Source: Actinomycetes bacterium (GTDB taxonomy: Bacteria; Actinomycetota; Actinomycetes; Prado026). From it: a stretch of 64,000 bases of DNA. The notes beneath the pieces were generated by a model. The model had not been told where the DNA came from and did no database searches. It worked only from the letters and a program-made list of their open reading frames with translations. Made by a program: the position numbers and the translations under genes. The stretch covers positions 3,670 to 67,669 of the forward strand of contig JBBSAJ010000009.1 in the NCBI GenBank assembly GCA_038252405.1. The letters are read 5' to 3'. Shown here in pieces: positions 3,353-54,887 of the stretch (the stretch's first letter is position 1; every line of letters begins with the position of its first letter).

Positions 3353-4259
3353 TCGGCGCGGTGAGGGCCCGCAGCCGCTGCACCAGCGGGGGCAGGGTCT
3401 GCTCGAGCGCCTCGACGAGCAGCAGGTGCACGTCGACGTCCACCACCAGGAGCTCCTTGGCCGGCGCGACGATCTCGTCGAACACCTGACGGGTGTAGGC
3501 CAGCGGGAACAGCGGGTCTCCTCGGCCGGCCACGACCAGGACGGGGCAGCGGATCGACCCGTCGCGCAGGCCGGACAGGTCGGCCCCGACCAGGCTGCTC
3601 AGGAACCCGAGCGGGTAGCTGCGCAGCCCGAGCGGGTCGGTCCAGAAGAAGTCGGCGTTCATCGGGTCGCTCGTGACCCGGTCCATCGTGAGATAGGCAC
3701 CGAACGGGACCGGCAGGCGTGGCGCCACCCGGCCGCCGAGCCGGAGCGCCGCCCGGAGCGCGGGGAACGCCGGGCCCAGGCGAGGCGGGAACCGGGTGAC
3801 GAGCAGGGAGCCCCGGAGGGTGGGGTCGAGGATGTTGTGGGCCACCACGGCGGTGAGGCGCTGCTCGGTGGCGGCCACGACCATCGCCAGCACGCCGCCC
3901 TGACTGGAGCCGCACACGACCACCTGCCTGCTCACCTCGCGGCGCGCCCACGCGACGGCGTCCCTGGCGTTGGTCACGAGCGTGCCGAAGGTCAGCGGAC
4001 GCCGTACCCGCGGGCTCTTGCCGTGGCCCTGGCCGTGCAGGCCGACGACGGTGAAACCGGCCCGGGCCAGGCCGTCGCAGAACTCCTCGTACAGCAGCGG
4101 GTGGGTCATGGTGCCCGGCAGGAACACCACGGCGGGCGCGCCGGGCTCGGCCCGCCACACCGACAGCACTACTGGAGCGCCGTCCGAGGTGATCACCACC
4201 TCGTCGTAGACGTCCGGACGCTGGACGGCGTTGAGGACGCGCTGGGTGGGGGTGCGCAT
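3318..4259 (-). CDS. alpha/beta hydrolase fold protein
   Basis: Nucleophile-elbow motif GSSQGG. ATG at 4259 (M8 of the track ORF) is preceded by GAGGGAGG. Confidence 0.65.
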
Positions 4260-5680: not shown

Positions 5681-6373
5681 TCAGCCGCTTTCGAGCACCG
5701 GGTGCTCGCTGAGCCCGAGGACCCGCCAGCCACGGTCGGGGAAGCCCGCCGCGTCCGCCACGCGCGCGGAGGCCACGTTGTCCGGGGCGTGCAGGTAGGT
5801 GGGCACCGCGCCGAGGTCGAGCACGTGCCGGGCGGCCTGCGCGACGAGCCGCCGGGCCAGCCCCTGGCCGCGGCCGCGCGGCTCGGTGACGACGGCCAGC
5901 TCGTGCCCGGCCGCGTCGTGCCGCTTGATCCCGACGCCAGCCAGGTAGCGGTCGTCGTCGTCGAAGGCCATCAGCACCTGGCCACCGAACGGATGCAGCC
6001 ACTCGGGCACTCGCGGGTTGTCGACGTCCACCCAGACGCCTGCGTCGGGTAGGGAGGCCGGCTCGGTCGTCCAGCGGAAGACCCCGTGGTAGACGACGTG
6101 GCCCGGCTGGTCGACCAGGTCGGGCAGCGTCCGACGCACGTCGTCCAGGCTGGTGAGGCGGCCGTCGGCGAGCGCCGCGGCCACCGGTTCGGCGAACGCG
6201 GGCGGGACGCCGATCACCGCCTGCCCCCGCGGGTCCTGCACGCCGGTGACCGGGTGCGGCTGGCCGTCCCAGCCGGGCGCACTGTTACGCGGGTTGCCGA
6301 CGATCGTGAGGGGACCGGACGGCGGCCACCGGCCGACCCAGCCGGCCAGGTGCTCGGCCAGCCGCCCCGGCAC
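5681..6373 (-). CDS. GNAT family N-acetyltransferase (C-terminal GNAT domain)
   Basis: The lower half of track ORF 5681..7438. Candidate starts are GTG 6373 and GTG 6385; ATG 6415 lies inside the MITE arm. The upper part of that long ORF is antisense to corA and is spurious. Confidence 0.55.
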   Translation of the reverse strand: MPGRLAEHLAGWVGRWPPSGPLTIVGNPRNSAPGWDGQPHPVTGVQDPRGQAVIGVPPAFAEPVAAALADGRLTSLDDVRRTLPDLVDQPGHVVYHGVFRWTTEPASLPDAGVWVDVDNPRVPEWLHPFGGQVLMAFDDDDRYLAGVGIKRHDAAGHELAVVTEPRGRGQGLARRLVAQAARHVLDLGAVPTYLHAPDNVASARVADAAGFPDRGWRVLGLSEHPVLESG

Positions 6374-7537: not shown

Positions 7538-7993
7538 CTAGGAGACGGTGCCCTCGAAGAGCGCCGAGAGGTCCAGCGACGGCACGTGGCGTTGGCTGGC
7601 CAGGGACACATAGGTGCGGGCCAGGGCGTCCTTGCCGGCACCCAGCACGGTGCTGAGCAGGCCGATCGCCTCGGCCAGCTCCGCCTGCGGCACGATCTGG
7701 AGGAGGTGTCGCCACATGGCCTCCTCCAGCGCGTTGTAGGCGGTCTGCACCTCACCGATGTCGAAGCCGGCCTCGAACCGTTCGGTGGCCACCTTCTCCG
7801 AGTAGCGCACGATGCTGGCCAGCTCGCGGTCGTGGATCCCCGCGACCACCAGCTCGAACAGGTTGGCCAGGCAGCGGCGGGTGGTCTCCTCGCCGAACGC
7901 CTCGTAGTGGACCGGGTGCGAGCGCTCGAGCGCCGCGTACGACTCCGACAGGACCTGGTCCCGGGCATCCCCCAGGACGACGTCGACATCCAT
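7538..7993 (-). CDS. stand-alone RsbR-N (non-heme globin-like sensor) domain protein
   Basis: ATG at 7993 (M33 of the track ORF) follows GGGAGG. The sequence resembles the N-terminal sensor domain of the stressosome protein RsbR. Confidence 0.4.
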   Translation of the reverse strand: MDVDVVLGDARDQVLSESYAALERSHPVHYEAFGEETTRRCLANLFELVVAGIHDRELASIVRYSEKVATERFEAGFDIGEVQTAYNALEEAMWRHLLQIVPQAELAEAIGLLSTVLGAGKDALARTYVSLASQRHVPSLDLSALFEGTVS

Positions 7994-24084: not shown

Positions 24085-24849
24085 ATGGAGTCCGGCCCGC
24101 TGCTGTTCGCGCGTTTCGCCTACCCGCCGAACGCACTGGGCTACTGCGGTCCGGACGGCTCCGGCGAGCTGCTCGAGCGGACGGCGTCCGCGGACGGCGG
24201 CCAGGACATGCGCCGGCTGGCCCGCGGGTTCGAGGGCGCCTGGCCGTACCTGGAGCTGATCGCGCACGAGAACGGTCTGGGCGACCCACTCGACCCGCGC
24301 GTGGTGGAGGCGTACTGGATCGGCAACGGGCTGCTGGACCGGGTCCGCGGCCCGGCCTTCCGCGGCTCGCTCGAGGACCGGTTCCGGCCACGGGTGGGGC
24401 GTGCGGTGGGCCACGTGCTGGACCCGGTGGCCGGCGGCGGCGTGCCGCACCACGCGTTCCACGTGTTCGGGGTGTTCCCCTGGGTCGGGCTGCTGCGCGG
24501 CGGTGTTGTCGACGAGCCGCTGCGGGTGCTCGACCGGTGCCGGATCCGGTGGGCCCGGGTCGACGCGGTCGTCGGTGACCGCGCGGTGGTCCGGTCCCGG
24601 CCGCTGGAGTGGCGCGACGGGCGGCTGCTGCTCGGCGCGCCCGCGGTGGAGGAGGTCACGGTGGCCGAGGCGGGCCGCTCCCTGGCCGCGGGGCTGGCGC
24701 CCGGGGACCTGGTGGCCTGCCACTGGGACTGGGTGTGCACCCGGATCACCGTGGCCCAGGCCACCCAGCTGCGCCATCGGACCGCCCAGGTTCTCGCCGC
24801 CGTCCAGCCGGTCAGGGTGACGACGGCGTATACATCGTCGTCACCCTGA
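24085..24849 (+). CDS. conserved hypothetical protein (MESGPLLFARFAYPPNALGYCGPD...), a type I recall as associated with hydrogenase clusters in Actinobacteria
   Basis: 254-aa ORF. Its last codons and TGA stop lie inside palindrome P1. Confidence 0.4.
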   Translation: MESGPLLFARFAYPPNALGYCGPDGSGELLERTASADGGQDMRRLARGFEGAWPYLELIAHENGLGDPLDPRVVEAYWIGNGLLDRVRGPAFRGSLEDRFRPRVGRAVGHVLDPVAGGGVPHHAFHVFGVFPWVGLLRGGVVDEPLRVLDRCRIRWARVDAVVGDRAVVRSRPLEWRDGRLLLGAPAVEEVTVAEAGRSLAAGLAPGDLVACHWDWVCTRITVAQATQLRHRTAQVLAAVQPVRVTTAYTSSSP

Positions 24850-24850
24850 C
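24811..24850. terminator. Palindromic hairpin P1 (GTCAGGGTGACGACG-loop10-CGTCGTCACCCTGAC); bidirectional terminator that contains the stop codons of both convergent genes
   Basis: 15-bp perfect stem. The TGA of the + gene lies at 24847-24849 and the TCA (TGA on the minus strand) of the - gene at 24841-24843, both inside the stem. Confidence 0.6.
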
Positions 24851-26052
24851 AGGCTGCTGTCGAAGAACGCGGTGACCCGCGCGGTCCACGCGTCCCGGTG
24901 CTGGGCCAGGCCCGCGGTGTGCGGGGTGTCCGGCAGCTCCCACAGGCTCACGGTCGACGGCGCCACCGCCTGCAGCGCCCGGGCCGCCGAGACCTCTCCC
25001 TCACCCGCGATCAGCAGCAGCGGCCGGGGGGCCACGGCGGCGACGGCCTCCCGCTGGGGCAGCGGGGTCGGCGCCCGGGTGAGCAGCCGGGCGGTCGCGA
25101 AGCTGATCACGTCGACGGCCCGCTCGGTGAGCCCCTCCAGCCGATGTGGCCGCTGCGAGGTGTCGGCGGGCAGCTTCGGCTGCACCCCCTCCGCGACGAC
25201 GGCGCGGATCCGGGAGTCGGTCGCGGCGGCGTTGATCGCCTGCTCGCCGCCCATGGACAGCCCCAGGACGCCGATCCGGCCGGGCTCGACGTCCGGCCTG
25301 GACTCCAGGTAGGAGACGGCCGCGGCCACGTCGAGGTCGCCCCACCAGCCGAAGTCCATGCCCGCCCCGCCGCTGCGCCCGTGCCCGCGGTCGTCGTAGA
25401 GCAGCACGCCGTAGCCGTGCCCGGCGAGCACGGCGGCCTGGTCGAGGACGCCGGAGCGGGTGGAGCCCGACCCGTGCAGCACGGCGACGGCGGCACCGTT
25501 CGTGGAGGGGATGTACCAGCCGGACAGCGGCACCCCGTCGGCGGTCGTGAAGGAGGCCTCGGCGAAGGGCAGGTCGAGATAGGCCGGGGTTCGGTTGCCT
25601 ACGTCGGTCGGTGCCGGGTTGGTCCCGGCGACCGCCGGCGTCACCGGGACGAGCACGAACTGGAACAGCAGGAACGCGACGGGTAGTGCGGCCAGCCGCC
25701 ACCAGCCGGGCAGCAGCCGGGTCAGCCGCCACCCGCCGATCCCGAGGAGCACCAGCCCGCTGGCCAGTGCCGCGAGCCCGGCCGCCGAGCTGAGGACCAG
25801 CCCGGCCTTGGCCAGGTGCACGGCCCCGATCCCGACACCGGCCACTGCGCCGAGCACGCCCAGGGCGAGGGCGACCGCTCCGACGACGGCGTCACCGGCC
25901 CGGCGGACCAGCAGGACGACGCCGAGCGTGAGCAGCCCCACCACGGCCAACCGCAGGGCCAGCCAGGCCCAGCTGCCCTGACGACCGACGAGCACGGCCA
26001 GGCTCACACCCAGCACCTCGCTGGCTCCCTGCACCCACCCGCGGACCGTCAC
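24841..26052 (-). CDS. membrane-anchored alpha/beta hydrolase (dienelactone hydrolase/peptidase S9-like)
   Basis: N-terminal transmembrane helices plus the nucleophile elbow GLSMGG. Confidence 0.65.
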   Translation of the reverse strand: MTVRGWVQGASEVLGVSLAVLVGRQGSWAWLALRLAVVGLLTLGVVLLVRRAGDAVVGAVALALGVLGAVAGVGIGAVHLAKAGLVLSSAAGLAALASGLVLLGIGGWRLTRLLPGWWRLAALPVAFLLFQFVLVPVTPAVAGTNPAPTDVGNRTPAYLDLPFAEASFTTADGVPLSGWYIPSTNGAAVAVLHGSGSTRSGVLDQAAVLAGHGYGVLLYDDRGHGRSGGAGMDFGWWGDLDVAAAVSYLESRPDVEPGRIGVLGLSMGGEQAINAAATDSRIRAVVAEGVQPKLPADTSQRPHRLEGLTERAVDVISFATARLLTRAPTPLPQREAVAAVAPRPLLLIAGEGEVSAARALQAVAPSTVSLWELPDTPHTAGLAQHRDAWTARVTAFFDSSLSG

Positions 26053-26710: not shown

Positions 26711-27006
26711 TTGCTCGGCCCCGCCCCGGGAGCCGGCTGGCTAGGGTGGCCCGCGGACGACGTCGACCTTGACTTCCCCGCCGTCGTGGGCTCCCGCGAG
26801 CGGCTCTGGTCGGTCTACGGGGCGGTCTGGGGCTGGCCGCCCGAGACCGTGACCCTGGAGCAGGACCGCGCGGACCTGGCCCACCATGAGGCCGAGATCG
26901 CCGCTCGGCAGTCGTCAACTACGCGCTGTTCGACGCCGCCGAGACCGTCCTGCTGGGCTGCGTGTACCTCGACCTGGTCGGCTCCGACGTCGATCTGTCA
27001 GGGTGA
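26711..27006 (+). pseudogene. GNAT-like acetyltransferase disrupted by a 1-nt deletion (frameshift near 26905-26915); the stop lies inside palindrome P2
   Basis: Frame A reads ...DLDFPAVVGSRERLW...WGWPPETVTLEQDRADLAHHEAEIAARQS. The +2 frame continues VNYALFDAAETVLLGCVYLDLVGSDVDLSG*. Inserting one T (TCGTCA to TCGTTCA) restores RQSFNYALFD. The only upstream start is TTG. Confidence 0.45.
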
Positions 27007-27037
27007 CGACGGTCCATAGGTCGTCGTCACCCTGACA
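26996..27037. repeat. Palindromic hairpin P2 (TGTCAGGGTGACGACG-loop9-TCGTCGTCACCCTGACA)
   Basis: Same stem sequence as P1. It is flanked by the short inverted sequences CGATC and GGTCGATG. Confidence 0.6.
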
Positions 27038-27214
27038 GGTCGATGGGCGTTGCGCTGGTGGCTCGGGGTCGGCGAATGAGGCACAGTAGGAACCGGACAA
27101 ATACCCCATCGCCCGCTGGGCCGCGCACGCACCAGGAGCCCCGTCATCGCCACCGCCGCCCCGGCCCGGGACAGGGTCCCCGAGCCGGGGACGGCGACGC
27201 GTGGGCTGCGCCGG

Positions 27215-29077
27215 ATGCCGGCCCTGGACGGCCTGCGGGCCCTCGCGGTGGTCGCCGTCCTGCTGTACCACGCCGACGTGTCGTTCGTGCCCGGCGGCTT
27301 CCTGGGCGTGGACGTGTTCTTCGTGCTCAGCGGGTTCCTGATCACCGCGCTGCTCCTGCGCGAGCTGGGTCGCCGGGGCCGGATCGGGTTCGGGGCGTTC
27401 TACCTGGGCCGGGCCAGGCGGCTGCTGCCCGCCCTGTCCGTGCTGCTGTTGGTGGTGGCGCTGGCGGCCGCGTTCGTGGTGCGAGACGCCGCGAGCACGG
27501 TGCGCACCGACCTGCTGGCCGCCGTCGGCTATGTCGCCAACTGGTGGTTCGTCGTCAAGGAGTCGTCGTACTTCGAGGGTCTGGGCCGGCCCCCGATGCT
27601 GCAGCACCTGTGGTCGCTGTCGGTGGAGGAGCAGTTCTACCTGCTCTGGCCGGTGGCCGCCCTGCTGGCCCACCGCTGGCGGCGGGCGCGCGGCGTGCTC
27701 ATCGTGGCCGGGGGCGGAGCGCTGGCCTCGACGCTGCTCATGGCCTGGCTGTCGGTACGCGGCGGGTACCCGGTCCCCAACGACCCGAGCCGGGTCTACT
27801 TCGGCACCGACACGCACGCCATGGGGCTGCTCGCCGGTGCCGCGCTGGCCTGCGTGTGGCAGACCTGGCAGCCGGACGGCGTGCGGCTGACCGAGCGTGG
27901 CCGGATCGCGCTGGAGGTCGCCGGACTGGTCGGCCTGAGCGGGGTGGTGGCGGCGTTCCTCGCCGTCGACGCCTACTCGACCGCGCTGTACCGGGGTGGG
28001 TTCCTGGTGCTTTCGGTGGGGACCGCGGCCCTGGTGGCGGCGATCAGCCAGCCCGAGACGCAGCTGTCCCGCCTGTTCGCCTGGGCGCCGCTGCGCTGGG
28101 TGGGGGAGCGCTCGTACGGGATCTACCTGTGGCACTGGCCGGTGTTCCTGGTCACCCGCCCCGGCCTCGACCTGCCGTGGGACGGTGGCTGGCTGCTGGC
28201 AGCGCGCATCGGGCTGGTCGTGGGGATCGCCGAGCTGTCCTACCGCTACGTCGAGATGCCGATCCGACGCGGTGCGCTGGCACGGGCGTGGCGGTCGTGG
28301 ACGCAGCGCCCGGCGGCCGAGGCCCGGCGGCGGGGGATCGGTGCGGCGCTGGGCGCGGTCACCGCTGCCGTGCTGCTGGCGGCCACCGTGAGCGGCCTGG
28401 TGCACGCGCCGTCGGCGGACAGCAGCGCCCTGGCCCGCGAGCTGCAGCGGATCGGCTCCACGCTGCCGACCGGCGACCCGACGGACGGCCCGCCGGGCAC
28501 CGCCCAGCCCACCCCGACGCCGACCAGCACCGCGCCGGCCGGGGCCGGTCCGGCGGCTCCCACCCCGGTGGCCCGCACCCTGATGGCCGCCCCTCCGGCC
28601 GTGCCGGTCGTCGTGCAGCCGGTCACCGCCGTGGGGGACTCGGTGCTGCTCGGCGCCGCACCCGCGATGCTGGCCCAGTTCCGGGCCGTGGTCATCGACG
28701 CCCACATCAGCCGCCAGCCGCGCGAGGTGTTCGACGAGGTGCGGGCCCTCAAGAAGGCGGGTCGGCTGGCGGCCGTGGTCGTCGTGCACGCCGGCACGAA
28801 CGGCCTGGTCACCACCAAGGACCTCTCGGCGCTGCTCACCGACCTCAAGGACCGAGGTCGGGTGGTCCTGGTGAACACCGCCGCCGACCGCAGCTGGCGC
28901 GCCTACAGCGACCGCAGCTTCGCCCTGGTCGTGCCGCATTTCCCGAACGTGGTGCTGGTCGACTGGAACGCCCTGTCGGCGGGGCACCGGGACTGGTTCG
29001 TCTCGGACGGCGTCCACCTCACCAAGGACGGCGCCCGCGCCTACGCCGCCGCGATCGCCGCGGCCGTCACGGGCTGA
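27215..29077 (+). CDS. acyltransferase family 3 (OatA-like, 10 transmembrane segments) with a C-terminal SGNH hydrolase domain
   Basis: N-terminal LDGLRALAV...GVDVFFVLSGFLIT, and a C-terminal domain joined through a Pro/Thr-rich linker. Confidence 0.75.
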   Translation: MPALDGLRALAVVAVLLYHADVSFVPGGFLGVDVFFVLSGFLITALLLRELGRRGRIGFGAFYLGRARRLLPALSVLLLVVALAAAFVVRDAASTVRTDLLAAVGYVANWWFVVKESSYFEGLGRPPMLQHLWSLSVEEQFYLLWPVAALLAHRWRRARGVLIVAGGGALASTLLMAWLSVRGGYPVPNDPSRVYFGTDTHAMGLLAGAALACVWQTWQPDGVRLTERGRIALEVAGLVGLSGVVAAFLAVDAYSTALYRGGFLVLSVGTAALVAAISQPETQLSRLFAWAPLRWVGERSYGIYLWHWPVFLVTRPGLDLPWDGGWLLAARIGLVVGIAELSYRYVEMPIRRGALARAWRSWTQRPAAEARRRGIGAALGAVTAAVLLAATVSGLVHAPSADSSALARELQRIGSTLPTGDPTDGPPGTAQPTPTPTSTAPAGAGPAAPTPVARTLMAAPPAVPVVVQPVTAVGDSVLLGAAPAMLAQFRAVVIDAHISRQPREVFDEVRALKKAGRLAAVVVVHAGTNGLVTTKDLSALLTDLKDRGRVVLVNTAADRSWRAYSDRSFALVVPHFPNVVLVDWNALSAGHRDWFVSDGVHLTKDGARAYAAAIAAAVTG

Positions 29078-29084
29078 CCCGGCA

Positions 29085-29125
29085 CTTGTCAGGGTGAGGA
29101 CGGACTCACCGCCGTCCGTTCCGCG
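29085..29125. repeat. Palindromic hairpin P3 (degenerate: intact left arm CTTGTCAGGGTGAGGACGG, eroded right arm)
   Basis: 18 nt are identical to the left arm of P4. It lies 8 bp after the acyltransferase stop. Confidence 0.45.
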
Positions 29126-37701: not shown

Positions 37702-38110
37702 GCAATTGGAAAGATCTTGGGAGAACCGCTTGCGCGGCGCCCCCAGGCCCGATAGACATCTCCCACGTCACCGGCGAAATCGGTGAGCGAGCAAGGGGAG
37801 ACCCGAGCAACCGCAACGGCTGAGGAGACTCGGCTGGCGTGGGCGAAGCGCGAGCAGGTGACGTGCCGGACGGAGACCGGGGCACCACGCCGAAGGGGCA
37901 ACCCGACGGCCTGCGGATGACGACGCAGCCGGTGCAGACGGACCGCGAGGCGCAGGCTGTGAAGCCGCGAAGCACCTGGGTGACCAGGAGCGACGCGAAC
38001 CGGACGTCATGTCGGTGCCACGCACGGCTGGGCAACCGGTCGTCTGAGGCGAAAGCGGCCGCGACAAGGCCCCGCGAACTCATACTTCGCGGGGCCTTGT
38101 TGATGTTCTA
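37702..38110 (+). ncRNA. candidate structured RNA of about 400 nt, family unknown (not RNase P RNA, tmRNA or SRP RNA by motif inspection)
   Basis: A 445-bp spacer between convergent genes with no credible ORF and locally lower GC. It shows local hairpins with GNRA-type loops (TCACCGgcgaaaTCGGTGA) and possible long-range pairing of 37733-37742 with 38050-38059. It ends in a strong terminator. Confidence 0.3.
38066..38109 (+). terminator. Intrinsic terminator hairpin AAGGCCCCGCGAA-loop7-TTCGCGGGGCCTT followed by GTTGATGTTCT
   Basis: 13-bp GC-rich perfect stem followed by a T-rich tail on the + strand. Confidence 0.6.
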
Positions 38111-49522: not shown

Positions 49523-50209
49523 ATGCAGAACAGGCAGGAGCGGGCGCCGCGGGGCCTGCTCACGGCCGACGAGGTTCAGCAGCTCCTCGACATCGACCGC
49601 TCCACCATCTACCGGATGGCCGGCGACGGCCGGCTGCCGGCCGTGAAGATCGGCCGTCAGTGGCGGTTCCCGGCCGACCGGATCGCCGCGCTGCTCGAAG
49701 TCGGCACCCAAGCCCCGGCCGCGAACCCCGCGTTCGACACGACCTCGTCGCAGCCCCTGAGCCCGCCGCTGTCGGCCGAGCTCGCTGAGTCGGTGCTGGA
49801 CGTGGCCGCCGGTGCGCTGGACGTGATGATGGTCGTCACGGACATGACGGGGCGGCCGGTGACGAATGTGGTCAACCCGTGCGCCCGATTCGTCCACGAG
49901 TCCAGCGACCCCGCGACCCTGGCTGTGTGTATCGAGGAGTGGCGGCAGCTGGCTGACGACGTCCACTTCGAGTCCCGGTTCCGCCTCGGCCGCCTCGGTT
50001 TCGAGTGCGCCCGGGCGTTCATCCGGGTCGGCTCGGAGCTGGTCGGCATGGTGCTGGCCGGCGGTGTGGCCCCGGTCGGTGATGAATCCGGCGACCTGTT
50101 CCAGCTCGACCCCGGACGGCGCCAGCAGGTGCTGTCCACGCTACCCAAAGTGGCTGCGGCACTGTCTCGCGTTGCCACCCCGACGAAGGACCTAAGGAGC
50201 GCAGGATGA
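49523..50209 (+). CDS. transcriptional regulator: N-terminal excisionase/MerR-type HTH plus a C-terminal PocR-like sensor domain
   Basis: HTH LLTADEVQQLLDIDRSTIYRMAGDGRLPAVKIGRQWRFP. The C-terminal ~170 aa are PocR-like and carry 3 Cys. Alternative start GTG 49505. Confidence 0.55.
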   Translation: MQNRQERAPRGLLTADEVQQLLDIDRSTIYRMAGDGRLPAVKIGRQWRFPADRIAALLEVGTQAPAANPAFDTTSSQPLSPPLSAELAESVLDVAAGALDVMMVVTDMTGRPVTNVVNPCARFVHESSDPATLAVCIEEWRQLADDVHFESRFRLGRLGFECARAFIRVGSELVGMVLAGGVAPVGDESGDLFQLDPGRRQQVLSTLPKVAAALSRVATPTKDLRSAG

Positions 50210-51441
50210 AGCGACTGCTCGTGCTCGGCGGTGGAACCGCAGGCACGATGGCCGTGAACAAGCTGCGGCCGCGGCTGGCCCGCGACGAGTGGCAAATCAC
50301 TGTTGTCGACCCGAGTGACACGCACTACTACCAGCCCGGTTACCTGTTCGTCCCGTTCGGCATCTACCAGCCCGAGGAGATCGTGAAGCCGCGCAAGCGC
50401 TTCATCCCCGAGGGCGTCGACCTGGTCCAGGCCGAGGTCGACAAGGTCCTGCCGGAGGACAACAAGGTCCTGCTCGTCGGTGGCCAGGAGCTGCCGTACG
50501 ACTACTTGATCATCGCCAGCGGCACCACGCCGCGGCCGGACCAGACCCCCGGTATGGCCGATGACATGGGCGGCAGCGTCCACGAGTTCTTCAGCTACGA
50601 GGGCGCCAAGCGGCTGGCCGAGAAGCTGAAGACCTGGGAGGGCGGCAAGCTGGTCGTCCACCTGACCGAGATGCCGATCAAGTGCCCGGTCGCCCCGCTG
50701 GAGTTCAGCTTCCTGGCCGAGGCCTTCTTCACCGAGAAGGGCATGCGGGACCAGGTCGAGATCACCTACGTGACCCCGCTCGAGGGCGCGTTCACCAAGC
50801 CGGTGGCGTCCAAGCACCTGGGCGGCATGTTCGACGAGCGCAAGATCCAGCTCGAGGCCGACTTCATGATCGAGTCGATCGACCCCGAGGCCAAGAAGCT
50901 GGTCTCGTTCGACGAGCGTGAGGTGCCCTACGACCTGCTGGTCACCATTCCGATCAACATGGGCGCCGACTTCGTGGCCCGGTCCGGCCTCGGCGACGAC
51001 CTGAACTACGTCCCGGTGGACAAGGAGACGTTGCTCTCCAACGCCTACGACAACATCTTCGCGATTGGCGACGCGTCGAACATCCCGGCGTCCAAGGCCG
51101 GCTCGGTGGCGCACTTCTCGATGGACCTGTTCCCGGACAACTTCGTCAACCACATCAACGGCCGTCCGATGACCGAGAAGTTCGACGGGCACGCCAACTG
51201 CTTCATCGAGAGCGGGCACGGCAAGGGTCTGCTGATCGACTTCAACTATGAGACCGAGCCGCTCCCCGGCAAGTACCCGCTGCCCGGCGTCGGCCCCTTC
51301 AGCCTGCTGAAGGAGACCGAGATCAACCACTGGGGCAAGATGATGTTCCGCTGGATGTACTGGAACCTGCTGCTCCCCGGCAAGGAGCTCCCGCTGCCCG
51401 CCCTGATGTCGATGGCCGGGAAGCAGACGGAGGGCGAGTGA
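50206..51441 (+). CDS. sqr: sulfide:quinone oxidoreductase-like FAD-dependent pyridine nucleotide-disulfide oxidoreductase
   Basis: N-terminal LVLGGGTAGT FAD motif. Candidate redox cysteines lie in KCPVAPLE and HANCF. ATGA overlap with the regulator gene. Confidence 0.65.
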   Translation: MKRLLVLGGGTAGTMAVNKLRPRLARDEWQITVVDPSDTHYYQPGYLFVPFGIYQPEEIVKPRKRFIPEGVDLVQAEVDKVLPEDNKVLLVGGQELPYDYLIIASGTTPRPDQTPGMADDMGGSVHEFFSYEGAKRLAEKLKTWEGGKLVVHLTEMPIKCPVAPLEFSFLAEAFFTEKGMRDQVEITYVTPLEGAFTKPVASKHLGGMFDERKIQLEADFMIESIDPEAKKLVSFDEREVPYDLLVTIPINMGADFVARSGLGDDLNYVPVDKETLLSNAYDNIFAIGDASNIPASKAGSVAHFSMDLFPDNFVNHINGRPMTEKFDGHANCFIESGHGKGLLIDFNYETEPLPGKYPLPGVGPFSLLKETEINHWGKMMFRWMYWNLLLPGKELPLPALMSMAGKQTEGE

Positions 51442-52142
51442 TGACCGAGGTCGTCTCGGCCCCGTCGCTGGACCAGCGGCTCGACCTGCTCAGCGAGCAG
51501 GTCGGGGCCATCGCCGAAGAGCTGCGCCGGCAGCGCCAGAGCCGGGAGCAGTGGTCGGAGCTGGTCACCGACCTGACCCCGGTCACCAAGGGCGTCATGG
51601 ACGTCGCCACCCGTGAGCTGGCGGACCTGAGCGAGGACGTCAGCCTCGAGGATGCCGTTCGGTTCCTCAAGACGACGGCCCGCGAGCTGCCCCGGCTCGA
51701 GGCTCTGATGGCGCAGCTGGACTCGATGAGCCAGCTGGTCAGCGAGGTCATGCCCCTGGTCGGACCGGGGGTGGGCAAGCTCACCGACGTGATGCAGCAG
51801 CTGGACGACAAGGGCTACTTCATGTTCGCCCAGGGCGGCATGGAGATCGCCGACAAGGTCGTCACGTCCTTCGACCACGACGACGTCGTGGCGCTGGGTG
51901 ACAACGTCGTCCTGATCCTCAACACGGTCAGGGAGATGACCCAGCCTGAGGTGATGGGGATGCTCAAGCGCACCTTCGTCACCGTGCAGGAGGTCGAGGA
52001 GGCGCACGTCGAGCCCCCGTCCATGTTCGCGCTGATCAAGGAGATGCGCGACCCGCAGACTCGCCGCGGGCTGTCCCGCGTGGTGAGCATGCTCCGCACC
52101 GTCGGTGCCGAGCAGCCCGAATCGTCAACCCCAACCAGCTAG
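51438..52142 (+). CDS. DUF1641 domain protein (commonly partnered with SQR-type oxidoreductases)
   Basis: ATGA overlap with the SQR-like gene. Confidence 0.5.
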   Translation: MMTEVVSAPSLDQRLDLLSEQVGAIAEELRRQRQSREQWSELVTDLTPVTKGVMDVATRELADLSEDVSLEDAVRFLKTTARELPRLEALMAQLDSMSQLVSEVMPLVGPGVGKLTDVMQQLDDKGYFMFAQGGMEIADKVVTSFDHDDVVALGDNVVLILNTVREMTQPEVMGMLKRTFVTVQEVEEAHVEPPSMFALIKEMRDPQTRRGLSRVVSMLRTVGAEQPESSTPTS

Positions 52143-52158
52143 GAAGGTTCGAACCACC

Positions 52159-52473
52159 ATGCCCGTGACCACGATGAACGGCCGGGAGATCCACGTCGAC
52201 GACGAGGGCTTCCTCACCGCGTACGACGAGTGGGACGAGGACCTCGGCAAGGTCCTCGCCGCCAACATCGGCGTCGACATGACCGACGAGCACTGGAAGG
52301 TCATCAAGTTCCTGCGGGACGACTTCAAGGTGACCGGCGAGACCGCGACCACCCGCCGGGTGCAGTCCGTCGGCGGCTTCTCCACCAAGGACCAGTTCAC
52401 GCTGTTCCCGAAGAAGCCGGCCAAGAAGATGTCCTACATCGCCGGGCTGCCCAAGCCGCACGGCTGCGTCTGA
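52159..52473 (+). CDS. TusE/DsrC/DsvC family sulfur-relay protein
   Basis: C-terminus ...PKPHGCV matches the conserved DsrC/TusE penultimate-Cys tail. RBS AGGAAGG. Confidence 0.65.
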   Translation: MPVTTMNGREIHVDDEGFLTAYDEWDEDLGKVLAANIGVDMTDEHWKVIKFLRDDFKVTGETATTRRVQSVGGFSTKDQFTLFPKKPAKKMSYIAGLPKPHGCV

Positions 52474-52497
52474 CCACCGAGGACGGAGAAACAGACT

Positions 52498-53019
52498 ATG
52501 AGTGCACCCATCGTCCCGAGTTTCGGCGACGACGAGGAGACCGACCGCAAGTTCGTCCTCATCTGCTCCAAGGGCAACCTGGACATGGCCTACCCGGCCC
52601 TCGTCTTGGCCAACGCCGCCCTGGGTGAGGGCATCGAGACCCACCTGTTCTTCACCTTCTGGGGCTTCGACATGATCACCAAGTCCCGGATGAACGACCT
52701 GAAGTTCACGCCCACCGGCAACACCGCAATGCACCTGCCGATCGGCGGGATCCGGATGCCGCAGGCACTGGCGCCGCTCCCCGGCGTCCAGGCGGTGGCG
52801 ACGAAGATGCTCAAGGACCAGATCGCCGAGCTCGGTATCCCCGAGGTCCCGGAGTTCCTGGACCAGATCGTCGCGGCCGGTGGCCACCTGTGGGCCTGCC
52901 GGATGTCGGCGGACATGAACCACCTGACCGAGTCGGACCTGCGCGACGACGTCGAGGGCATCATCAACGCCTCGGACTTCATCGAGATGACCGACGGCGC
53001 CCAGCTGCTCTTCATCTGA
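52498..53019 (+). CDS. DsrE/DsrF-like family sulfur-carrier protein
   Basis: 174 aa with the LWACRMS conserved-cysteine motif. Confidence 0.55.
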   Translation: MSAPIVPSFGDDEETDRKFVLICSKGNLDMAYPALVLANAALGEGIETHLFFTFWGFDMITKSRMNDLKFTPTGNTAMHLPIGGIRMPQALAPLPGVQAVATKMLKDQIAELGIPEVPEFLDQIVAAGGHLWACRMSADMNHLTESDLRDDVEGIINASDFIEMTDGAQLLFI

Positions 53020-53032
53020 CCCCCGCCTGAAC

Positions 53033-53076
53033 TTGTCAGGGTGAGGACGAGCTATAGCTCGTCCTCACCCTGACAA
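53033..53076. terminator. Palindromic hairpin P4 (TTGTCAGGGTGAGGACGAGC-TATA-GCTCGTCCTCACCCTGACAA), 20-bp perfect stem
   Basis: It lies 14 bp after the dsrE-like stop and shares the TGTCAGGGTGA core with P1-P3. Confidence 0.65.
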
Positions 53077-53111
53077 CTGTGCGGGGGCGGGCGGCTGAGA
53101 TAGTGAGCGCC

Positions 53112-53432
53112 ATGCCCAACGTCCTCACTCGCTACCGGATCATGGCCTACGTCACCGGCGTCGGTCTGGTCCTGCTCGTCTGCGTCGCCATGCCGCTGAA
53201 GTACTTCGCCGACTCACCGGGCATGGTCCACGTCATCGGGATGCTGCACGGCTACCTCTACATCCTGTACATCATCGCGACGTTCGACCTCGGGTCCCGG
53301 CGGCGCTGGCCGCTGCTCAAGATGCTGCTCGTCATGCTGTCCGGCACGATCCCGTTCGCCGTCTTCTTCGTCGAGCACCGGATCGTCAAGGAGGAGCTCG
53401 CCCGGACTGGCAGCCCCGGCAGCGCCGCCTGA
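53112..53432 (+). CDS. DUF3817 family small membrane protein
   Basis: ATG 53112 is M12 of the track ORF. Three transmembrane helices; the protein is typically genome-adjacent to SURF1 in Actinobacteria. Confidence 0.55.
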   Translation: MPNVLTRYRIMAYVTGVGLVLLVCVAMPLKYFADSPGMVHVIGMLHGYLYILYIIATFDLGSRRRWPLLKMLLVMLSGTIPFAVFFVEHRIVKEELARTGSPGSAA

Positions 53433-54167
53433 GCCGGTGGCTGCCTCCTTGCGGACGGCGGCCGCCCACATCCACACCGTGGCCGCGGCGAACAGCCACC
53501 ACTGCAGCGCGTAGGTCAGGCTCTGCACCGACCAGTGGGTGGTCGTCGGCGGCAGCGGGGGAGGCACGGTGTCCAGCGCGGGTGTCGTGGGCGGCTGCTG
53601 GTCGGCGAGCAGCACCGAGCCGTCGTAGAGCCGGTACGGCCACCGGTTGACCAGGTCAGCGGTGGTGACCCGCTCCACCTGCCCGGCGGGCAGCACGCTG
53701 GTCATCCCGGCTGGCAGGGGGGTCTCCGAGGGCGCCAGGTAGCCGCGCACGGTCACCGGACCGGCCGGCGGTGCCGAGACGGTGACGTCCGGCTGTCCCT
53801 GCCCTGGCACCCAGCCGCGGACCACCGTGGCTGCCTGCCCCGCGGACGTCACGAGCGGGGTCACCACGTAGAAGCCGCCCTTGCCCTGCAGGTCGTGGCC
53901 TGGGGAGAGCAGCTGATGGGCCACGTCGTACCGGCCGGTCACGGTCACCGCGGCCCCGCGGTTGTCCGCCGTGACCAGGTTCTGCGCGCCCACCGCCACG
54001 GCCAGCGGCCGGGCCGTGCTCAGCGCTGGGGCGGTCGCCGGGGGGCCCGAGTCACGGGTGCGGGCCCGGTCCCACTGCCACCCGCCGAGCGTCACGAAGG
54101 CGGCGATAGCGAGCAGCGCCCCGACGTGGACGGCGAGCCAGCGGGGCTGCAGCAGGAACCGGTACAT
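53214..54167 (-). CDS. SURF1 family (cytochrome oxidase assembly) protein; the annotated 3' 219 bp overlap DUF3817 antisense
   Basis: ATG 54167 gives MYRFLLQPRWLAVHVGALLAIAAFVTLGGWQWDRA. The second transmembrane helix ends near 53432, yet there is no in-frame stop until 53214. Confidence 0.55.
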   Translation of the reverse strand: MYRFLLQPRWLAVHVGALLAIAAFVTLGGWQWDRARTRDSGPPATAPALSTARPLAVAVGAQNLVTADNRGAAVTVTGRYDVAHQLLSPGHDLQGKGGFYVVTPLVTSAGQAATVVRGWVPGQGQPDVTVSAPPAGPVTVRGYLAPSETPLPAGMTSVLPAGQVERVTTADLVNRWPYRLYDGSVLLADQQPPTTPALDTVPPPLPPTTTHWSVQSLTYALQWWLFAAATVWMWAAAVRKEAATGSGGAAGAASPGELLLDDPVLDEEDGERDRAGQHDEQHLEQRPAPPGPEVERRDDVQDVEVAVQHPDDVDHAR

Positions 54168-54212
54168 CGGGGACCACGGTACGTCCCACACCGCAGGTGA
54201 CTGCGCAGTAAC

Positions 54213-54887
54213 GTGCACAGCAGGACTGAGGAAGGGGCACCGTGGCCACTTCGGGGACCTCTGCGGTCGAGGTCCGCCTTTCGCGGGCCGTCGGTGGCTG
54301 TGCTGGACTCGCTGACCGGGCTCGGTGGCCAGCTCACCGCGCCGTACCCGGAGAAGCTGATCTACGACGTCGTTGGGCTTCCGGCGATCCGGGGTCAGGC
54401 GCTGGTCGACAACGTGGTCCAGCAGGCCGAGGAGCTGGAGGTCGCCAAGGACCACGTCGTGGTCCGCACCGAGCCCACGAGGGGACGGTCGCCCGGGTGC
54501 TGTCGTCCTCGGTGAAGGTGCTGACGCCGTTCGAGGTCGCCGCCATCCACGGCGCCGACCGGGCGGAGTCGGTGAACCTCTCCAACAACAAGACCGACGA
54601 GCACCAGGCGCTCGAGGTGCAGGACGTGGTCGCCGCCCTGGGCCTCACCGCAGACGTGGGCCCGTCCACCCGCTGGGGGCTCGAGCAGCGCAGTGGGCCC
54701 ATCGATGTGGACAGCGGGATGCGAACCTCGCTGCCGCGAGTGTTCTCCGCCGGTGACATCACCGAGCACGATGGAAAGGTCCAGCTGCTCTTGATCGGGC
54801 TGGGCGAGGCGGCCACCGCGGTGACCAACGCGACGGCGGTCGTGCACCCCGGCGCGAAGCTGTTCCCCGGCCACTCCTCAGAGTTCC
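54213..54887 (+). pseudogene. ferredoxin-NADP+ reductase (thioredoxin-reductase-like, YumC type) remnant with internal deletions and a frameshift
   Basis: One frame retains SVAVLDSLTGLGGQLTAPYPEKLIYDVVGLPAIRGQALVDNVVQQAEE. The C-terminal segment HEGTVARVLSSSVKVLTPFEV...VFSAGDITEHDGKVQLLLIGLGEAATAVTNATAVVHPGAKLFPGHSS sits in a different frame. The GxGxxG FAD segment and about 170 aa of the NADP domain are missing. Confidence 0.55.

What the first reader, a model, noticed from the sequence alone, without database searches (positions are those of the whole stretch)
53033..53076. Second repeat family: 40-45 bp perfect palindromes with a TGTCAGGGTGA core and compensatory stem variation
Four loci share this hairpin. 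They lie at 24811-24850, 26996-27037, 29085-29125 (eroded) and 53033-53076, all at gene 3' ends. Stems are 15-20 bp and perfect. Two subtypes differ in the inner stem (GTGACGACG with CGTCGTCAC, against GTGAGGACGAGC with GCTCGTCCTCAC) yet keep perfect complementarity, and the loops are unrelated (TATA, GTCCATAGG, GCGTATACAT). That pattern indicates selection on structure, or palindrome-templated repair, and it looks like a REP-like or terminator family rather than a protein operator. At 24811-24850 the stop codons of both convergent genes lie inside the stem (…SSP* and …LSG*).
Basis: seen in the sequence. Interest (0 to 1): 0.6.

Follow-up and report, generated by a model that had tools for sequence, protein, structure and literature searches.

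The report
Dispersed palindromes tied to nuclease gene
The four hairpins are copies of a 40-54 bp palindromic repeat family of actinomycetes that sits at gene ends and that, in related genomes, brackets and co-evolves with an uncharacterised DNA-binding nuclease gene, much as REP elements pair with their RAYT transposase but with a different kind of protein.

Summary
Three intact copies (24811-24850, 26997-27036, 53035-53074) all read GTCAGGGTGA-N20-TCACCCTGAC. A fourth (29086-29125) keeps only the left half. They are 3 of the 4 strongest hairpins in the window (RNA dG -41 to -50 kcal/mol).

The same 40-bp palindrome occurs in Nocardioides, Isoptericola and 'Nanopelagicales' and Propionibacteriaceae MAGs. 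The inner stems differ by lineage but stay complementary. Copies lie mostly at convergent or tandem gene ends and often supply the TGA stop codon. Close relatives of the window carry an imperfect copy at 53035. All three substitutions in the window create base pairs.

New result: in three genomes, two copies bracket a ~300-aa gene encoding an AbiEi-like DNA-binding domain fused to a DUF559 (Vsr-like) nuclease domain. In 80 metagenome loci of this gene family, about 75% of flanks carry a long palindrome against 2% of control windows, and palindrome sequence tracks protein identity.

Best reading: the window copies are solo members of a REP-like family whose partner is this nuclease. They persist at 3' ends as transcript-end hairpins. 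The termination function and the dispersal mechanism are inferred, not shown. I found no published description of this pairing.

The parts
24805..24856 (.). Copy H1 (CGACG subtype). The core is 24811-24850, with a 15-bp perfect stem plus 5 outer pairs after one mismatch. It lies in the 9-bp overlap of two convergent genes and holds both TGA stop codons.
   Evidence: (dG -41.3 kcal/mol on either strand, z -6.4 and -7.3)
26990..27043 (.). Copy H2 (CGACG subtype). The core is 26997-27036, and the arms are 22 nt with one mismatch. Its left-arm TGA ends a short frameshifted ORF (...LSG*).
   Evidence: (dG -50.5 kcal/mol, z -9.4)
29086..29125 (.). Copy H3, decayed. The left half TTGTCAGGGTGAGGACGG is intact (16/16 match to the GGACG subtype) and the inner CCGTCC partner is kept, but the right outer arm is lost. 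It starts 9 nt after the stop of the acyltransferase gene.
   Evidence: (z -1.0)
53033..53076 (.). Copy H4 (GGACG subtype). It is a perfect 44-bp palindrome centred on TA|TA. It starts 13 nt after the stop of the DsrE_2 gene, and the next gene's ORF begins 2 nt after it.
   Evidence: dG -46.8 kcal/mol, z -10.5
24085..24849 (+). DUF6390 gene. Its last 13 codons and its stop codon are encoded by H1.
   Evidence: the domain ends at residue 241 of 254
24841..26052 (-). Alpha/beta-hydrolase (Peptidase_S15-like) gene. Its last codons (LSG) and stop codon are encoded by H1.
26711..27006 (+). Short ORF with a frameshift near 26900 that terminates inside H2. It is probably a pseudogene and has no Pfam match.
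27215..29077 (+). Acyl_transf_3 gene lying between H2 and H3.
52498..53019 (+). DsrE_2 gene upstream of H4. In relatives at 81-86% amino-acid identity, the same position after its stop codon holds hairpins of unrelated sequence.
53079..53432 (+). DUF3817 membrane-protein gene downstream of H4.

Best explanation
The four loci are solo copies (three intact, one decayed) of a dispersed palindromic repeat. The core is GTCAGGGTGA-N20-TCACCCTGAC, and the full element is about 44-54 bp with a head resembling CGAGTTGTCAG.

The repeat belongs to a wider superfamily of 44-66 bp palindromes in actinomycetes. Their primary location is on both sides of a ~300-aa gene that encodes an AbiEi-like winged-helix DNA-binding domain fused to a DUF559 (Vsr-like, PD-(D/E)XK) nuclease domain. 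The palindromes are most likely the cis sites that this protein recognises.

In some lineages (the window's, Nocardioides, Isoptericola) copies have also spread to other sites. I infer two possible routes: loss of the gene by recombination between its two flanking palindromes, or nuclease-initiated copying.

Solo copies survive at gene 3' ends for two reasons. The element carries TGA stops on both strands, so insertion there costs only a few C-terminal residues. When transcribed it forms a hairpin of -41 to -50 kcal/mol that can act from either direction as a transcript-end hairpin, by termination without a U-tract or by protecting the 3' end.

Shown here: the family, its anatomy, its distribution, its pairing constraint, its 3'-end bias and its association with the gene. 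Inferred: protein binding, the mode of dispersal and the RNA-level function.
For: Family and distribution
- There are 32 copies of exactly 40 bp in Nocardioides sp. TF02-7 (12), two other Nocardioides species, four Isoptericola genomes, a 'Nanopelagicales' MAG (8, with the same two subtypes as the window), a Propionibacteriaceae MAG and one further actinomycete MAG. Other spacings look like chance matches scattered across phyla.

Pairing constraint
- 85% of cells are paired, against 74.8% when shuffled and 32-43% when slid. 157 cells carry changes on both sides.
- All three substitutions between the window and its 99%-identical relatives create pairs.
- Between two Isoptericola species the stems have 0 differences, while the 12-nt spacer has 5 and the loop has 2.

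3'-end role
- Gene context is 11 convergent, 14 tandem and 4 divergent. A neighbour's stop codon lies inside the element in at least 9 of 35 copies.
- Relatives carry unrelated hairpins at the same position after the DsrE_2 gene.
- The family supplies 3 of the 4 outlier hairpins in the window.

Gene association
- Two copies 1.02-1.04 kb apart bracket homologous genes in three genomes, each with different neighbouring genes.
- In 80 metagenome loci, strict hairpins occur in 33/67 upstream and 34/72 downstream flanks, against 3 in 158.6 kb of background. With a lenient score the figures are 72% and 75% against 2% of 639 control windows.
- Palindrome-arm identity rises with protein identity, from 0.50 to 0.96 (Spearman 0.63, 0/300 permutations).
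- In the two genomes that have both the gene and solo copies, the solos match the gene-flanking palindromes.

The protein
- An AlphaFold model (pLDDT 87) matches the AbiEi antitoxin 6y8q (E 3.6e-5) and Rv2827c.
- The C-terminus matches DUF559 and MTES_1575 REase in Pfam, with invariant acidic and histidine residues.
- AbiEi proteins bind inverted repeats (PMC7319586).
- The gene is inverted in place between its palindromes in two related genomes. This fits the reported enrichment of DUF559 genes among predicted inversion targets (PMC9881135).
Against: - The window contains no AbiEi-DUF559 gene, so the link for this genome rests on relatives.
- In most loci of the gene family there are no solo copies within 2.5-10 kb. 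The only 3 background hairpins in 158.6 kb are unrelated. Dispersal is therefore lineage-specific and its mechanism is unknown.
- No target-site duplication was seen by eye at the ends of the window's three intact copies.
- Arm-protein co-variation is partly expected from simple linkage.
- There is no U-tract after any window copy.
- In M. tuberculosis, predicted terminators of every type, the analogous TRIT hairpins among them, showed minimal overlap with mapped 3' ends. Mycobacterial RNA polymerase needs a U-tract in vitro (PMC3993855 title and abstract).
- The strand-asymmetry test was inconclusive: 8 G-U against 4 A-C mismatches in the sense orientation.
- Some Nocardioides copies carry hybrid arms with tandem A-C/C-A mismatches. 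This shows that pairing near the apex is not strictly maintained.
Confidence: 0.6

Rival explanations
1. These are ordinary factor-independent ('I-shaped') terminator hairpins. Their sequence similarity comes only from convergent selection for stable GC-rich stems that contain stop codons. No mobile origin and no protein partner are involved.
For: - Copies sit at 3' ends.
- Unrelated hairpins occupy the same position in relatives.
- Folding energies are very strong.
- Compensatory changes occur.
Against: - Convergence cannot explain an invariant 10-mer, a fixed 40-bp length and genome-specific inner stems shared by many unlinked loci.
- It cannot explain copies in divergent or promoter positions upstream of the AbiEi-DUF559 gene, for example L044 3750.
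- It cannot explain the roughly 35-fold enrichment of palindromes on both sides of one gene family.
Confidence: 0.1
2. These are double-stranded DNA operator sites of a dimeric regulator, which could be the AbiEi-like protein itself. They would form a regulon or a set of decoy sites. Hairpin-forming potential would be a by-product of two-fold symmetric recognition, and the RNA would play no role.
For: - The flanked protein has the AbiEi fold, and AbiEi proteins bind inverted repeats to autoregulate (PMC7319586).
- The upstream palindrome lies about 50-120 nt before the gene's start.
- The outer head is the most conserved part of the element.
- Hybrid arms suggest that the half-sites can evolve separately.
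Against: - Solo copies lie at gene ends or inside terminal codons, not in promoters.
- Complementarity is maintained over 15-22 bp per arm, including inner positions that differ between lineages. That is more than one winged helix can read.
- A second palindrome sits immediately after the gene's stop codon.
- Substitutions in the window all restore pairing.
Confidence: 0.15
3. These are classical REP/REPIN elements mobilised by a RAYT (HUH tyrosine transposase), or MITE derivatives of an IS200/IS605-type element encoded elsewhere in the genome.
For: - The elements are short palindromes in multiple copies, extragenic with a 3'-end bias, and their sequences are lineage-specific.
- REPs are also known to supply stop codons (PMC3733652).
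Against: - There is no unpaired GTAG or CGTC tag.
- Stems are much longer than the 5-13 bp reported for REPs.
- Copies are single, not doublets.
- The only gene found bracketed by copies is AbiEi-DUF559. None of the 40 members scanned gave a Y1 transposase Pfam match.
- No target-site duplication was seen by eye at the ends of the window copies.
Confidence: 0.07
4. These are passive footprints, analogous to solo LTRs. Each solo copy marks a site where an AbiEi-DUF559 unit once inserted and was later deleted by recombination between its two flanking palindromes. The remaining palindrome has no function.
For: - The flanking copies in the GTCAGGGTGA family are identical direct repeats.
- The unit is found inverted in place in related genomes, so its palindromes do recombine.
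- Units and solo copies occupy the same kinds of intergenic sites, and palindromes that flank a unit already supply stop codons to neighbouring genes.
Against: - Stems stay intact across species while adjacent spacers diverge.
- Recent substitutions restore pairing, which argues for an ongoing constraint or correction.
- One decayed copy (H3) shows what neutral decay looks like.
- This rival overlaps with the main explanation on origin. It differs only in denying a present function.
Confidence: 0.08

Closest known systems
REP / REPIN elements with their RAYT transposase (Nunvar 2010, PMC2817692; Bertels and Rainey 2011, PMC3116915; Di Nocera 2013, PMC3733652)
   Same: - Both are short palindromic repeats dispersed between genes, mostly between tandem and convergent genes, and both sometimes supply stop codons.
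- In both, a low-copy gene is bracketed by copies of the repeat, and the repeat sequence is specific to the gene lineage.
- Inheritance looks largely vertical. The unit sits in the same bipA/peptidase intergenic region in two related genomes.
   Different: - The partner protein is an AbiEi-like winged helix fused to a DUF559 PD-(D/E)XK nuclease, not an HUH tyrosine transposase.
- There is no unpaired GTAG or CGTC tag.
- Arms are 15-22 bp and nearly perfect, against 5-13 bp in REPs.
- Copies are single rather than doublets.
- The hosts are actinomycetes, a phylum absent from the tagged-REP survey.
- In most genomes only the two gene-flanking copies are seen.
TRIT, the 'Tuberculosis Rho-independent terminator' motif of Mycobacterium (Gardner 2011, PMC3152330)
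   Same: - Both are hairpins of conserved sequence, palindromic and therefore bidirectional.
- TRIT has 147 copies in an actinobacterial genome.
- TRIT is positioned so that the hairpin overlaps the stop codon (around -8). Here the TGA at motif positions 8-10 is often the stop codon.
- Both account for most of the strongly structured gene ends.
   Different: - TRIT was reported as restricted to Mycobacterium.
- Its sequence or covariance model was not available here, so homology could not be tested.
- No partner gene was reported for TRIT.
- Term-seq in M. tuberculosis found little overlap between predicted terminators of any type, TRITs included, and mapped 3' ends (bioRxiv 10.1101/2022.06.01.494293).
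AbiEi antitoxins and their inverted-repeat operators (PDB 6y8q, 1zel; Beck 2020, PMC7319586)
   Same: - The first ~200 residues of the bracketed protein have the AbiEi fold.
- AbiEi proteins bind inverted repeats upstream of their own gene.
- A palindrome lies about 50-120 nt upstream of the gene here.
   Different: - No AbiEii nucleotidyltransferase toxin gene was listed next to it in the four loci with gene calls, where the neighbours are ordinary housekeeping genes.
- The C-terminus is a DUF559 nuclease domain.
- A second palindrome follows the stop codon.
- Copies are dispersed elsewhere in some genomes.
U-tract-less ('I-shaped') intrinsic terminators of high-GC actinobacteria
   Same: A GC-rich stable hairpin directly after, or overlapping, a stop codon with no T-run. 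Unrelated hairpins occupy the orthologous position in relatives.
   Different: Sequence and length are conserved across unlinked loci and across genera, which ordinary terminators do not show. Some copies lie upstream of genes.

Membership tests
REP/REPIN-RAYT | Short palindromic repeat present in many extragenic copies per genome | tested here: met
   The window has 3.5 copies in 64 kb. Whole-genome counts were not obtainable.
REP/REPIN-RAYT | Conserved unpaired GTAG (or CGTC) tag at one end; stems of 5-13 bp | tested here: not met
   The head is (T/C)GTCAG and it is paired. Arms are 15-22 bp. The REP features are taken from PMC3733652.
REP/REPIN-RAYT | Cognate gene bracketed by the repeats is a Y1/HUH tyrosine transposase (RAYT) | tested here: not met
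   The bracketed gene matches AbiEi_4, DUF559 and MTES_1575 in Pfam and has the AbiEi fold. No transposase family matched in any of the 40 members scanned.
REP/REPIN-RAYT | Repeat sequence co-varies with the lineage of the bracketed gene | tested here: met
   Spearman 0.63 between protein identity and arm identity, with 0/300 permutations reaching it. Solo copies match the gene-flanking copies within a genome.
TRIT (mycobacterial terminator motif) | Palindromic hairpin of conserved sequence that overlaps the stop codon | tested here: met
   A neighbouring gene's stop codon lies inside the element in at least 9 of 35 copies, including both genes at H1.
TRIT (mycobacterial terminator motif) | Match to the TRIT covariance model or consensus | not testable with these tools
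   No supplementary file with the model is held, Rfam has no such family, and no mycobacterial genome sequence could be reached.
TRIT (mycobacterial terminator motif) | Restricted to Mycobacterium | tested here: not met
   The family was found in Nocardioides, Isoptericola, and 'Nanopelagicales' and Propionibacteriaceae MAGs. No Mycobacterium record appeared among the 98 hits.
Canonical intrinsic terminator | GC-rich hairpin followed by a U-tract | tested here: not met
   The hairpin requirement is met. No T-run follows any copy, and the consensus scan reports no terminator at these sites.
MITE / insertion sequence | Terminal inverted repeats flanked by a target-site duplication | tested here: inconclusive
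   I saw no direct repeat at the ends of the three window copies by inspection. No empty orthologous site was available to define exact insertion boundaries.
AbiE toxin-antitoxin operator | Inverted repeats in the promoter of an abiEi-abiEii operon | tested here: not met
   The gene-proximal palindrome fits the upstream position. However, no DUF1814/AbiEii gene was listed next to the gene in the four loci with gene calls (L190-L193). The window copies are not near any such gene.

The most novel reading that the evidence does not exclude
The AbiEi-DUF559 protein is the dedicated enzyme of a previously unrecognised palindrome system in Actinomycetota, a non-HUH counterpart of RAYT-REPIN. In this reading it binds its co-evolving flanking palindromes, cuts or recombines them (causing inversion and excision), and seeds solo copies. 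The host then keeps those solo copies as bidirectional transcript-end hairpins that also supply stop codons. The mycobacterial TRIT motif could be one branch of the same system.
Probability: 0.3. Interest if true: 0.85.

Novelty: new variant of a known kind. Interest (0 to 1): 0.68.

Why it matters
REP-like repeats have been explained mechanistically only through RAYT transposases, mainly in Proteobacteria. High-GC actinomycetes lack canonical terminators, and the one conserved 'terminator motif' known there (TRIT) has no known origin or partner.

This work links a dispersed actinomycete palindrome family to a large uncharacterised protein family. A profile search finds about 900 cluster representatives (50% identity) at E <= 1e-30 and about 8,200 at E <= 1e-10. 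The proteins combine an AbiEi DNA-binding fold with a Vsr-like nuclease domain.

If the link is functional, it would:
- assign a role to a large group of DUF559-related proteins;
- provide a second, independent solution to the 'palindrome plus dedicated enzyme' arrangement;
- explain where stop-codon-overlapping hairpins at actinobacterial gene ends come from.

All of this is directly testable with cultured Nocardioides or Isoptericola strains.

Tried and rejected
- **Rfam.** The scan at gathering thresholds gave 0 hits. A permissive scan of H4 gave only generic miRNA-like hairpin matches far below threshold.
- **Literature search for the 10-mers.** It returned only unrelated primers and similar sequences.
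- **Searches for 'DUF559' with 'palindrom', 'AbiEi' or 'Actinobacteria repeat'.** No paper describes the association. The one relevant item is a table entry showing DUF559 genes enriched among predicted inversion targets.
- **TRIT sequence.** No supplement is held, so homology could not be tested.
- **Strand asymmetry of G-U against A-C mismatches,** used to separate RNA-level from DNA-level constraint. The result was 8 against 4, which is too few to decide.
- **Idea that variable complementary flanks come from insertion into pre-existing hairpins.** Rejected, because the flanks match the conserved extended head of the superfamily (CGAGTTGTCAG).
- **Idea that the H1-H3 cluster marks gene cassettes in the manner of integron attC sites.** Rejected. 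In Nocardioides, hairpin pairs also flank ordinary core genes such as 3-hydroxybutyryl-CoA dehydrogenase, and gene orientations are mixed.
- **Plasmid and virus origin.** The protein has no match in 72,556 plasmids, and the palindrome has no match in viral contigs.
- **Exact-protein look-up of the DUF6390 gene.** It found nothing.
- **Sequence-profile search of PDB with 40 family members.** It found nothing, and only the structural comparison gave matches.
Full report
**1. The observation**

Three share the exact form GTCAGGGTGA-N20-TCACCCTGAC, at 24811-24850, 26997-27036 and 53035-53074. The fourth (29086-29125) keeps the left half TTGTCAGGGTGAGGACGG and an inner CCGTCC partner, but has lost the right outer arm.

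- The 10-mer occurs exactly 7 times, only at these loci. With one mismatch there are 14 matches against 6.3 expected, and 0 of 100 shuffles reached that number.
- A 16-nt half-site search with up to 3 mismatches finds nothing else.
- The three intact copies are among the four longest inverted repeats in the window. They are three of only four hairpins scoring above the best hairpin in shuffled sequence. The fourth is an unrelated hairpin at 38064-38100.
- As RNA they fold at -41.3, -50.5 and -46.8 kcal/mol (z -6.4 to -10.5). The decayed copy is indistinguishable from shuffles (z -1.0).

- The length is constant at 40 bp.
- The centres are related (YATA/ATAG) rather than unrelated loops.
- Complementarity extends outward to 24805-24856 and 26990-27043.
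- H4 is a perfect 44-bp palindrome.

**2. Gene context in the window**

The window is about 73% G+C. Genes were called by third-position GC.

- **H1** lies in the 9-bp overlap of two convergent genes and holds both stop codons. The DUF6390 domain of the plus-strand gene ends at residue 241 of 254, so its last 13 codons are encoded by the hairpin.
- **H2** ends a short frameshifted ORF (...LSG*) and lies 178 nt upstream of an Acyl_transf_3 gene. It is therefore not at the 3' end of an intact gene.
- **H3** follows the acyltransferase stop codon.
- **H4** lies between a DsrE_2 gene and a DUF3817 gene.

No copy is followed by a T-run, and the consensus terminator scan reports nothing at these sites. 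Rfam has no matching family.

**3. The family beyond the window**

Among total lengths of 30-56 bp, 36 matches are exactly 40 bp, while no other length has more than 8. Of the 36, 32 are clearly one family and all come from actinomycetes:
- Nocardioides sp. TF02-7: 12 copies
- Nocardioides sp. BGMRC 2183: 2
- N. panacisoli: 2
- Four Isoptericola genomes: 6
- A 'Candidatus Nanopelagicales' MAG: 8
- A Propionibacteriaceae MAG: 1
- A further actinomycete MAG: 1

The outer 10 bp was fixed by the search, but the inner stems are genome-specific and complementary. They read GAGTGACC in Nocardioides and GCGCGCGG in Isoptericola. The MAG has GGACGGGC and CGACGGGC, the same two subtypes as the window.

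On a 37-sequence alignment, 85% of cells pair. That compares with 74.8% when partners are shuffled (0/500 shuffles reach it) and 32-43% when partners are slid. Four inner positions alternate between GC, CG, AU and UA with almost no unpaired cells. Mismatches concentrate in the three pairs next to the loop.

Flanks outside the 40 bp are also conserved and complementary (for example CGAGTT...AACTCG and TGAGGTC...GACCTCA), so the element is about 54 bp long.

**4. Microevolution**

Metagenome contigs 99% identical to the window carry H4 as an imperfect palindrome: GTGTCAGGGTGAGGACGAGCCATAGCCCGTCCTCACCCTGACAA. The window differs inside the element at three positions, and each change creates a base pair.

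A nearly identical contig (4 differences in 2,822 bp) carries H1 and H2. One of its four differences lies in the apical region of H1.

Between two Isoptericola species about 92% identical in this region, the 36 stem positions show no change. The 12-nt spacer before the hairpin shows 5 changes and the loop shows 2.

Pairing is therefore maintained, either by selection or by a correction process templated on the palindrome.

**5. Position and likely RNA role**

Crude gene calls were made around 35 copies. Context was convergent for 11, tandem for 14, divergent for 4 and undetermined for 6. A neighbouring gene's stop codon lies inside the element in at least 9.

In relatives whose DsrE_2 protein is 81-86% identical, the same spot after the stop codon holds hairpins of unrelated sequence. 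That position is therefore a general slot for a transcript-end hairpin, and in the window's lineage a family member fills it.

A strand-asymmetry test (G-U against A-C mismatches in the sense strand) gave 8 against 4, which does not decide between RNA-level and DNA-level constraint.

**6. The associated gene**

Five of the fetched 8-kb blocks contain two copies. In three of them, from three different genomes, the copies lie 1.02-1.04 kb apart and bracket homologous ~300-aa genes (37-67% identical). The neighbouring genes differ in each case. Pfam gives weak AbiEi_4 and DUF559 matches.

A metagenome scan with an alignment of the three proteins returned 80 loci. A generic hairpin finder gave these results:
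- Strict palindromes were found in 33 of 67 upstream flanks and 34 of 72 downstream flanks, and on both sides in 19 of 59 loci. The remaining 158.6 kb held only 3 hairpins, all unrelated.
- With a lenient score, 72% of upstream and 75% of downstream flanks are positive, against 2% of 639 control windows.

The palindromes are 44-66 bp long and differ between loci, for example:
- CCGAGTTGTCAGCGTCTCAAAGGGCTATAGCACTTTGAGACGCTGACAACTCGG
- GGGTCGTCCGCCTGAGG...CCTCAGGCGGACGACCC
- GTCGTAGGACTGAGAGTGACCTATGGACCACTCTCAGTCCTACGAC

They nevertheless share a head (CG[AG][GC]T[TC]GT), an internal TGAG and a CTATAG/CCATGG centre. The window's TTGTCAGGGTGAGGACGAGCTATAGC... fits this design.

Arm identity rises steadily with protein identity, from 0.50 at 20-40% to 0.96 above 90% (Spearman 0.63, 0/300 permutations). 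Linkage alone would give some correlation. However, 73% arm identity at 60-70% protein identity is more than I would expect for unconstrained intergenic DNA (my inference).

The two flanking copies are direct repeats in the GTCAGGGTGA-type and GTCGTC-type families, and mutually inverted in the TTGTCAG-type families.

Three further loci taken from longer contigs are also bracketed by related, partly imperfect palindromes, with no solo copies within 10 kb. They are:
- an NCBI genome assembly;
- a Cellulosimicrobium isolate;
- a 1.85-Mb contig in which the gene sits between an ABC-F gene and rplM.

One of these occupies the same bipA/S9-peptidase intergenic region as the MAG copy, but in the opposite orientation. 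The unit has therefore inverted in place between its palindromes. This fits a published enrichment of DUF559 genes among predicted inversion targets (PMC9881135).

**7. The protein**

- Forty members share invariant residues in the C-terminal domain (D, D, E-x-D-G, H, D, R).
- Pfam assigns DUF559 to 14 of 40, AbiEi_4 to 11 and REase_MTES_1575 to 5.
- An AlphaFold model (pLDDT 87) matches the AbiEi antitoxin of S. agalactiae (6y8q, E 3.6e-5) and Rv2827c (1zel) over about 200 residues.
- The only sequence-level PDB hit is a weak match of the C-terminus to a DUF559 structure (3hrl).
- AbiEi proteins bind inverted repeats in their own promoters (PMC7319586).
- Where sources name these proteins, they are called 'hypothetical protein' or 'very-short-patch-repair endonuclease'. 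Most are known only from 1-3 kb contigs.
- A profile search of 1.84 billion representatives finds 900 at E <= 1e-30 and 8,181 at E <= 1e-10.
- The protein is absent from the plasmid collection, and the palindrome is absent from viral contigs.

**8. Interpretation**

What is shown:
- a conserved, constant-length palindromic repeat family;
- a pairing constraint on its stems;
- a bias to gene 3' ends and the supply of stop codons;
- a strong, lineage-specific association of this palindrome superfamily with both ends of the AbiEi-DUF559 gene.

What is inferred:
- that the protein recognises the palindromes;
- that solo copies derive from the gene unit, either by recombination between the flanking copies or by nuclease-initiated copying;
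- that solo copies act as transcript-end hairpins.

Points against or unresolved:
- The window has no such gene.
- Most gene loci show no nearby solo copies.
- No target-site duplication was seen.
- There is no U-tract.
- In M. tuberculosis, predicted terminators of every type, TRIT hairpins included, overlap poorly with mapped 3' ends.

**9. Comparison with known systems**

REP/RAYT systems are the closest in logic. However, three defining REP/RAYT features were tested and not met: the GTAG or CGTC tag, the short stems and the HUH transposase. I therefore do not file this as a REP/RAYT member.

TRIT of Mycobacterium (PMC3152330) is the closest in position and behaviour. It is palindromic, bidirectional, overlaps the stop codon and has 147 copies. 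Homology could not be tested, and TRIT was reported as restricted to Mycobacterium.

I found no paper that links DUF559 or AbiEi-fold proteins with flanking or dispersed palindromes. The library searched holds only open-access papers and preprints.

**10. Verdict**

The finding is real and more interesting than a terminator family. It is best described as a new variant of the 'dispersed palindrome plus cognate enzyme' theme.

My confidence in the composite explanation is 0.6. Within it, the descriptive parts are firm, the gene association is well supported, and the mechanism is unproven.

Noticed in passing
L110-L189 (upstream of the gene match); also L044 about 3720-3745, L064 about 1965-1990, L088 about 7895-7920, L190 9975-9990: A TGTGGA/TCCACA motif lies between the upstream palindrome and the gene start in 70 of 72 loci (median position -76), against a background of 0.037 per 160 nt. 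It is often extended to TTATCCACA or TTGTCCACA, which by my recollection resembles DnaA-box consensus sequences. It is not present near the window's solo copies.
   Followed up: partly
L064 958-2033 compared with L190 9925-11012: The AbiEi-DUF559 unit occupies the same bipA/S9-peptidase intergenic region in two related genomes (proteins 68% identical) but in opposite orientation. Its flanking palindromes have diverged (TTGTCAGGGTGAGG... against TTGTCAGCC...). This indicates inversion in place between the palindromes.
   Followed up: partly
L044 2713 and 3750, L045 6990 (Nocardioides); L010 4470 and 5230: Some copies have 'hybrid' arms. In Nocardioides, an inner dinucleotide exists as AC/GT or GT/AC, and several copies combine AC with AC, giving tandem A-C/C-A mismatches. 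Both Propionibacteriaceae copies pair a GGACG left arm with a CGTCG right arm. This suggests exchange between half-sites or between copies.
   Followed up: no
window 26711-27006: A short ORF with a frameshift near 26900 ends inside hairpin H2. It looks like a pseudogene truncated at the element. It has no Pfam match. By recollection only, its sequence resembles small acetyltransferase-like proteins.
   Followed up: partly
window 38064-38100: This is the only other outlier hairpin in the window (ACAAGGCCCCGCGAA-N7-TTCGCGGGGCCTTGT, 15-bp perfect stem). It is unrelated to the family and is presumably an ordinary terminator.
   Followed up: no
window 50000-54500: A stretch of lower G+C (0.66-0.68 against about 0.73) holds a sulfur-related cluster: HTH_17/PocR regulator, Pyr_redox_2, HMP-like, DsrC and DsrE_2. 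The cluster is conserved in relatives up to the DsrE_2 stop codon. Synteny breaks exactly at the hairpin position.
   Followed up: partly
L108/L109 about 5690-5710 (Actinotalea fermentans): A palindrome ATACCCCGGGGGGTAT lies just upstream of a rhodanese gene next to the DsrE_2 cluster. By recollection it looks like a CsoR/CstR-type operator.
   Followed up: no
proteins P0121-P0240: Most AbiEi-DUF559 homologues are known only from contigs of 1-3 kb, about the size of the unit. This suggests that assemblies break at its palindromes or that the unit is repeated within genomes.
   Followed up: no
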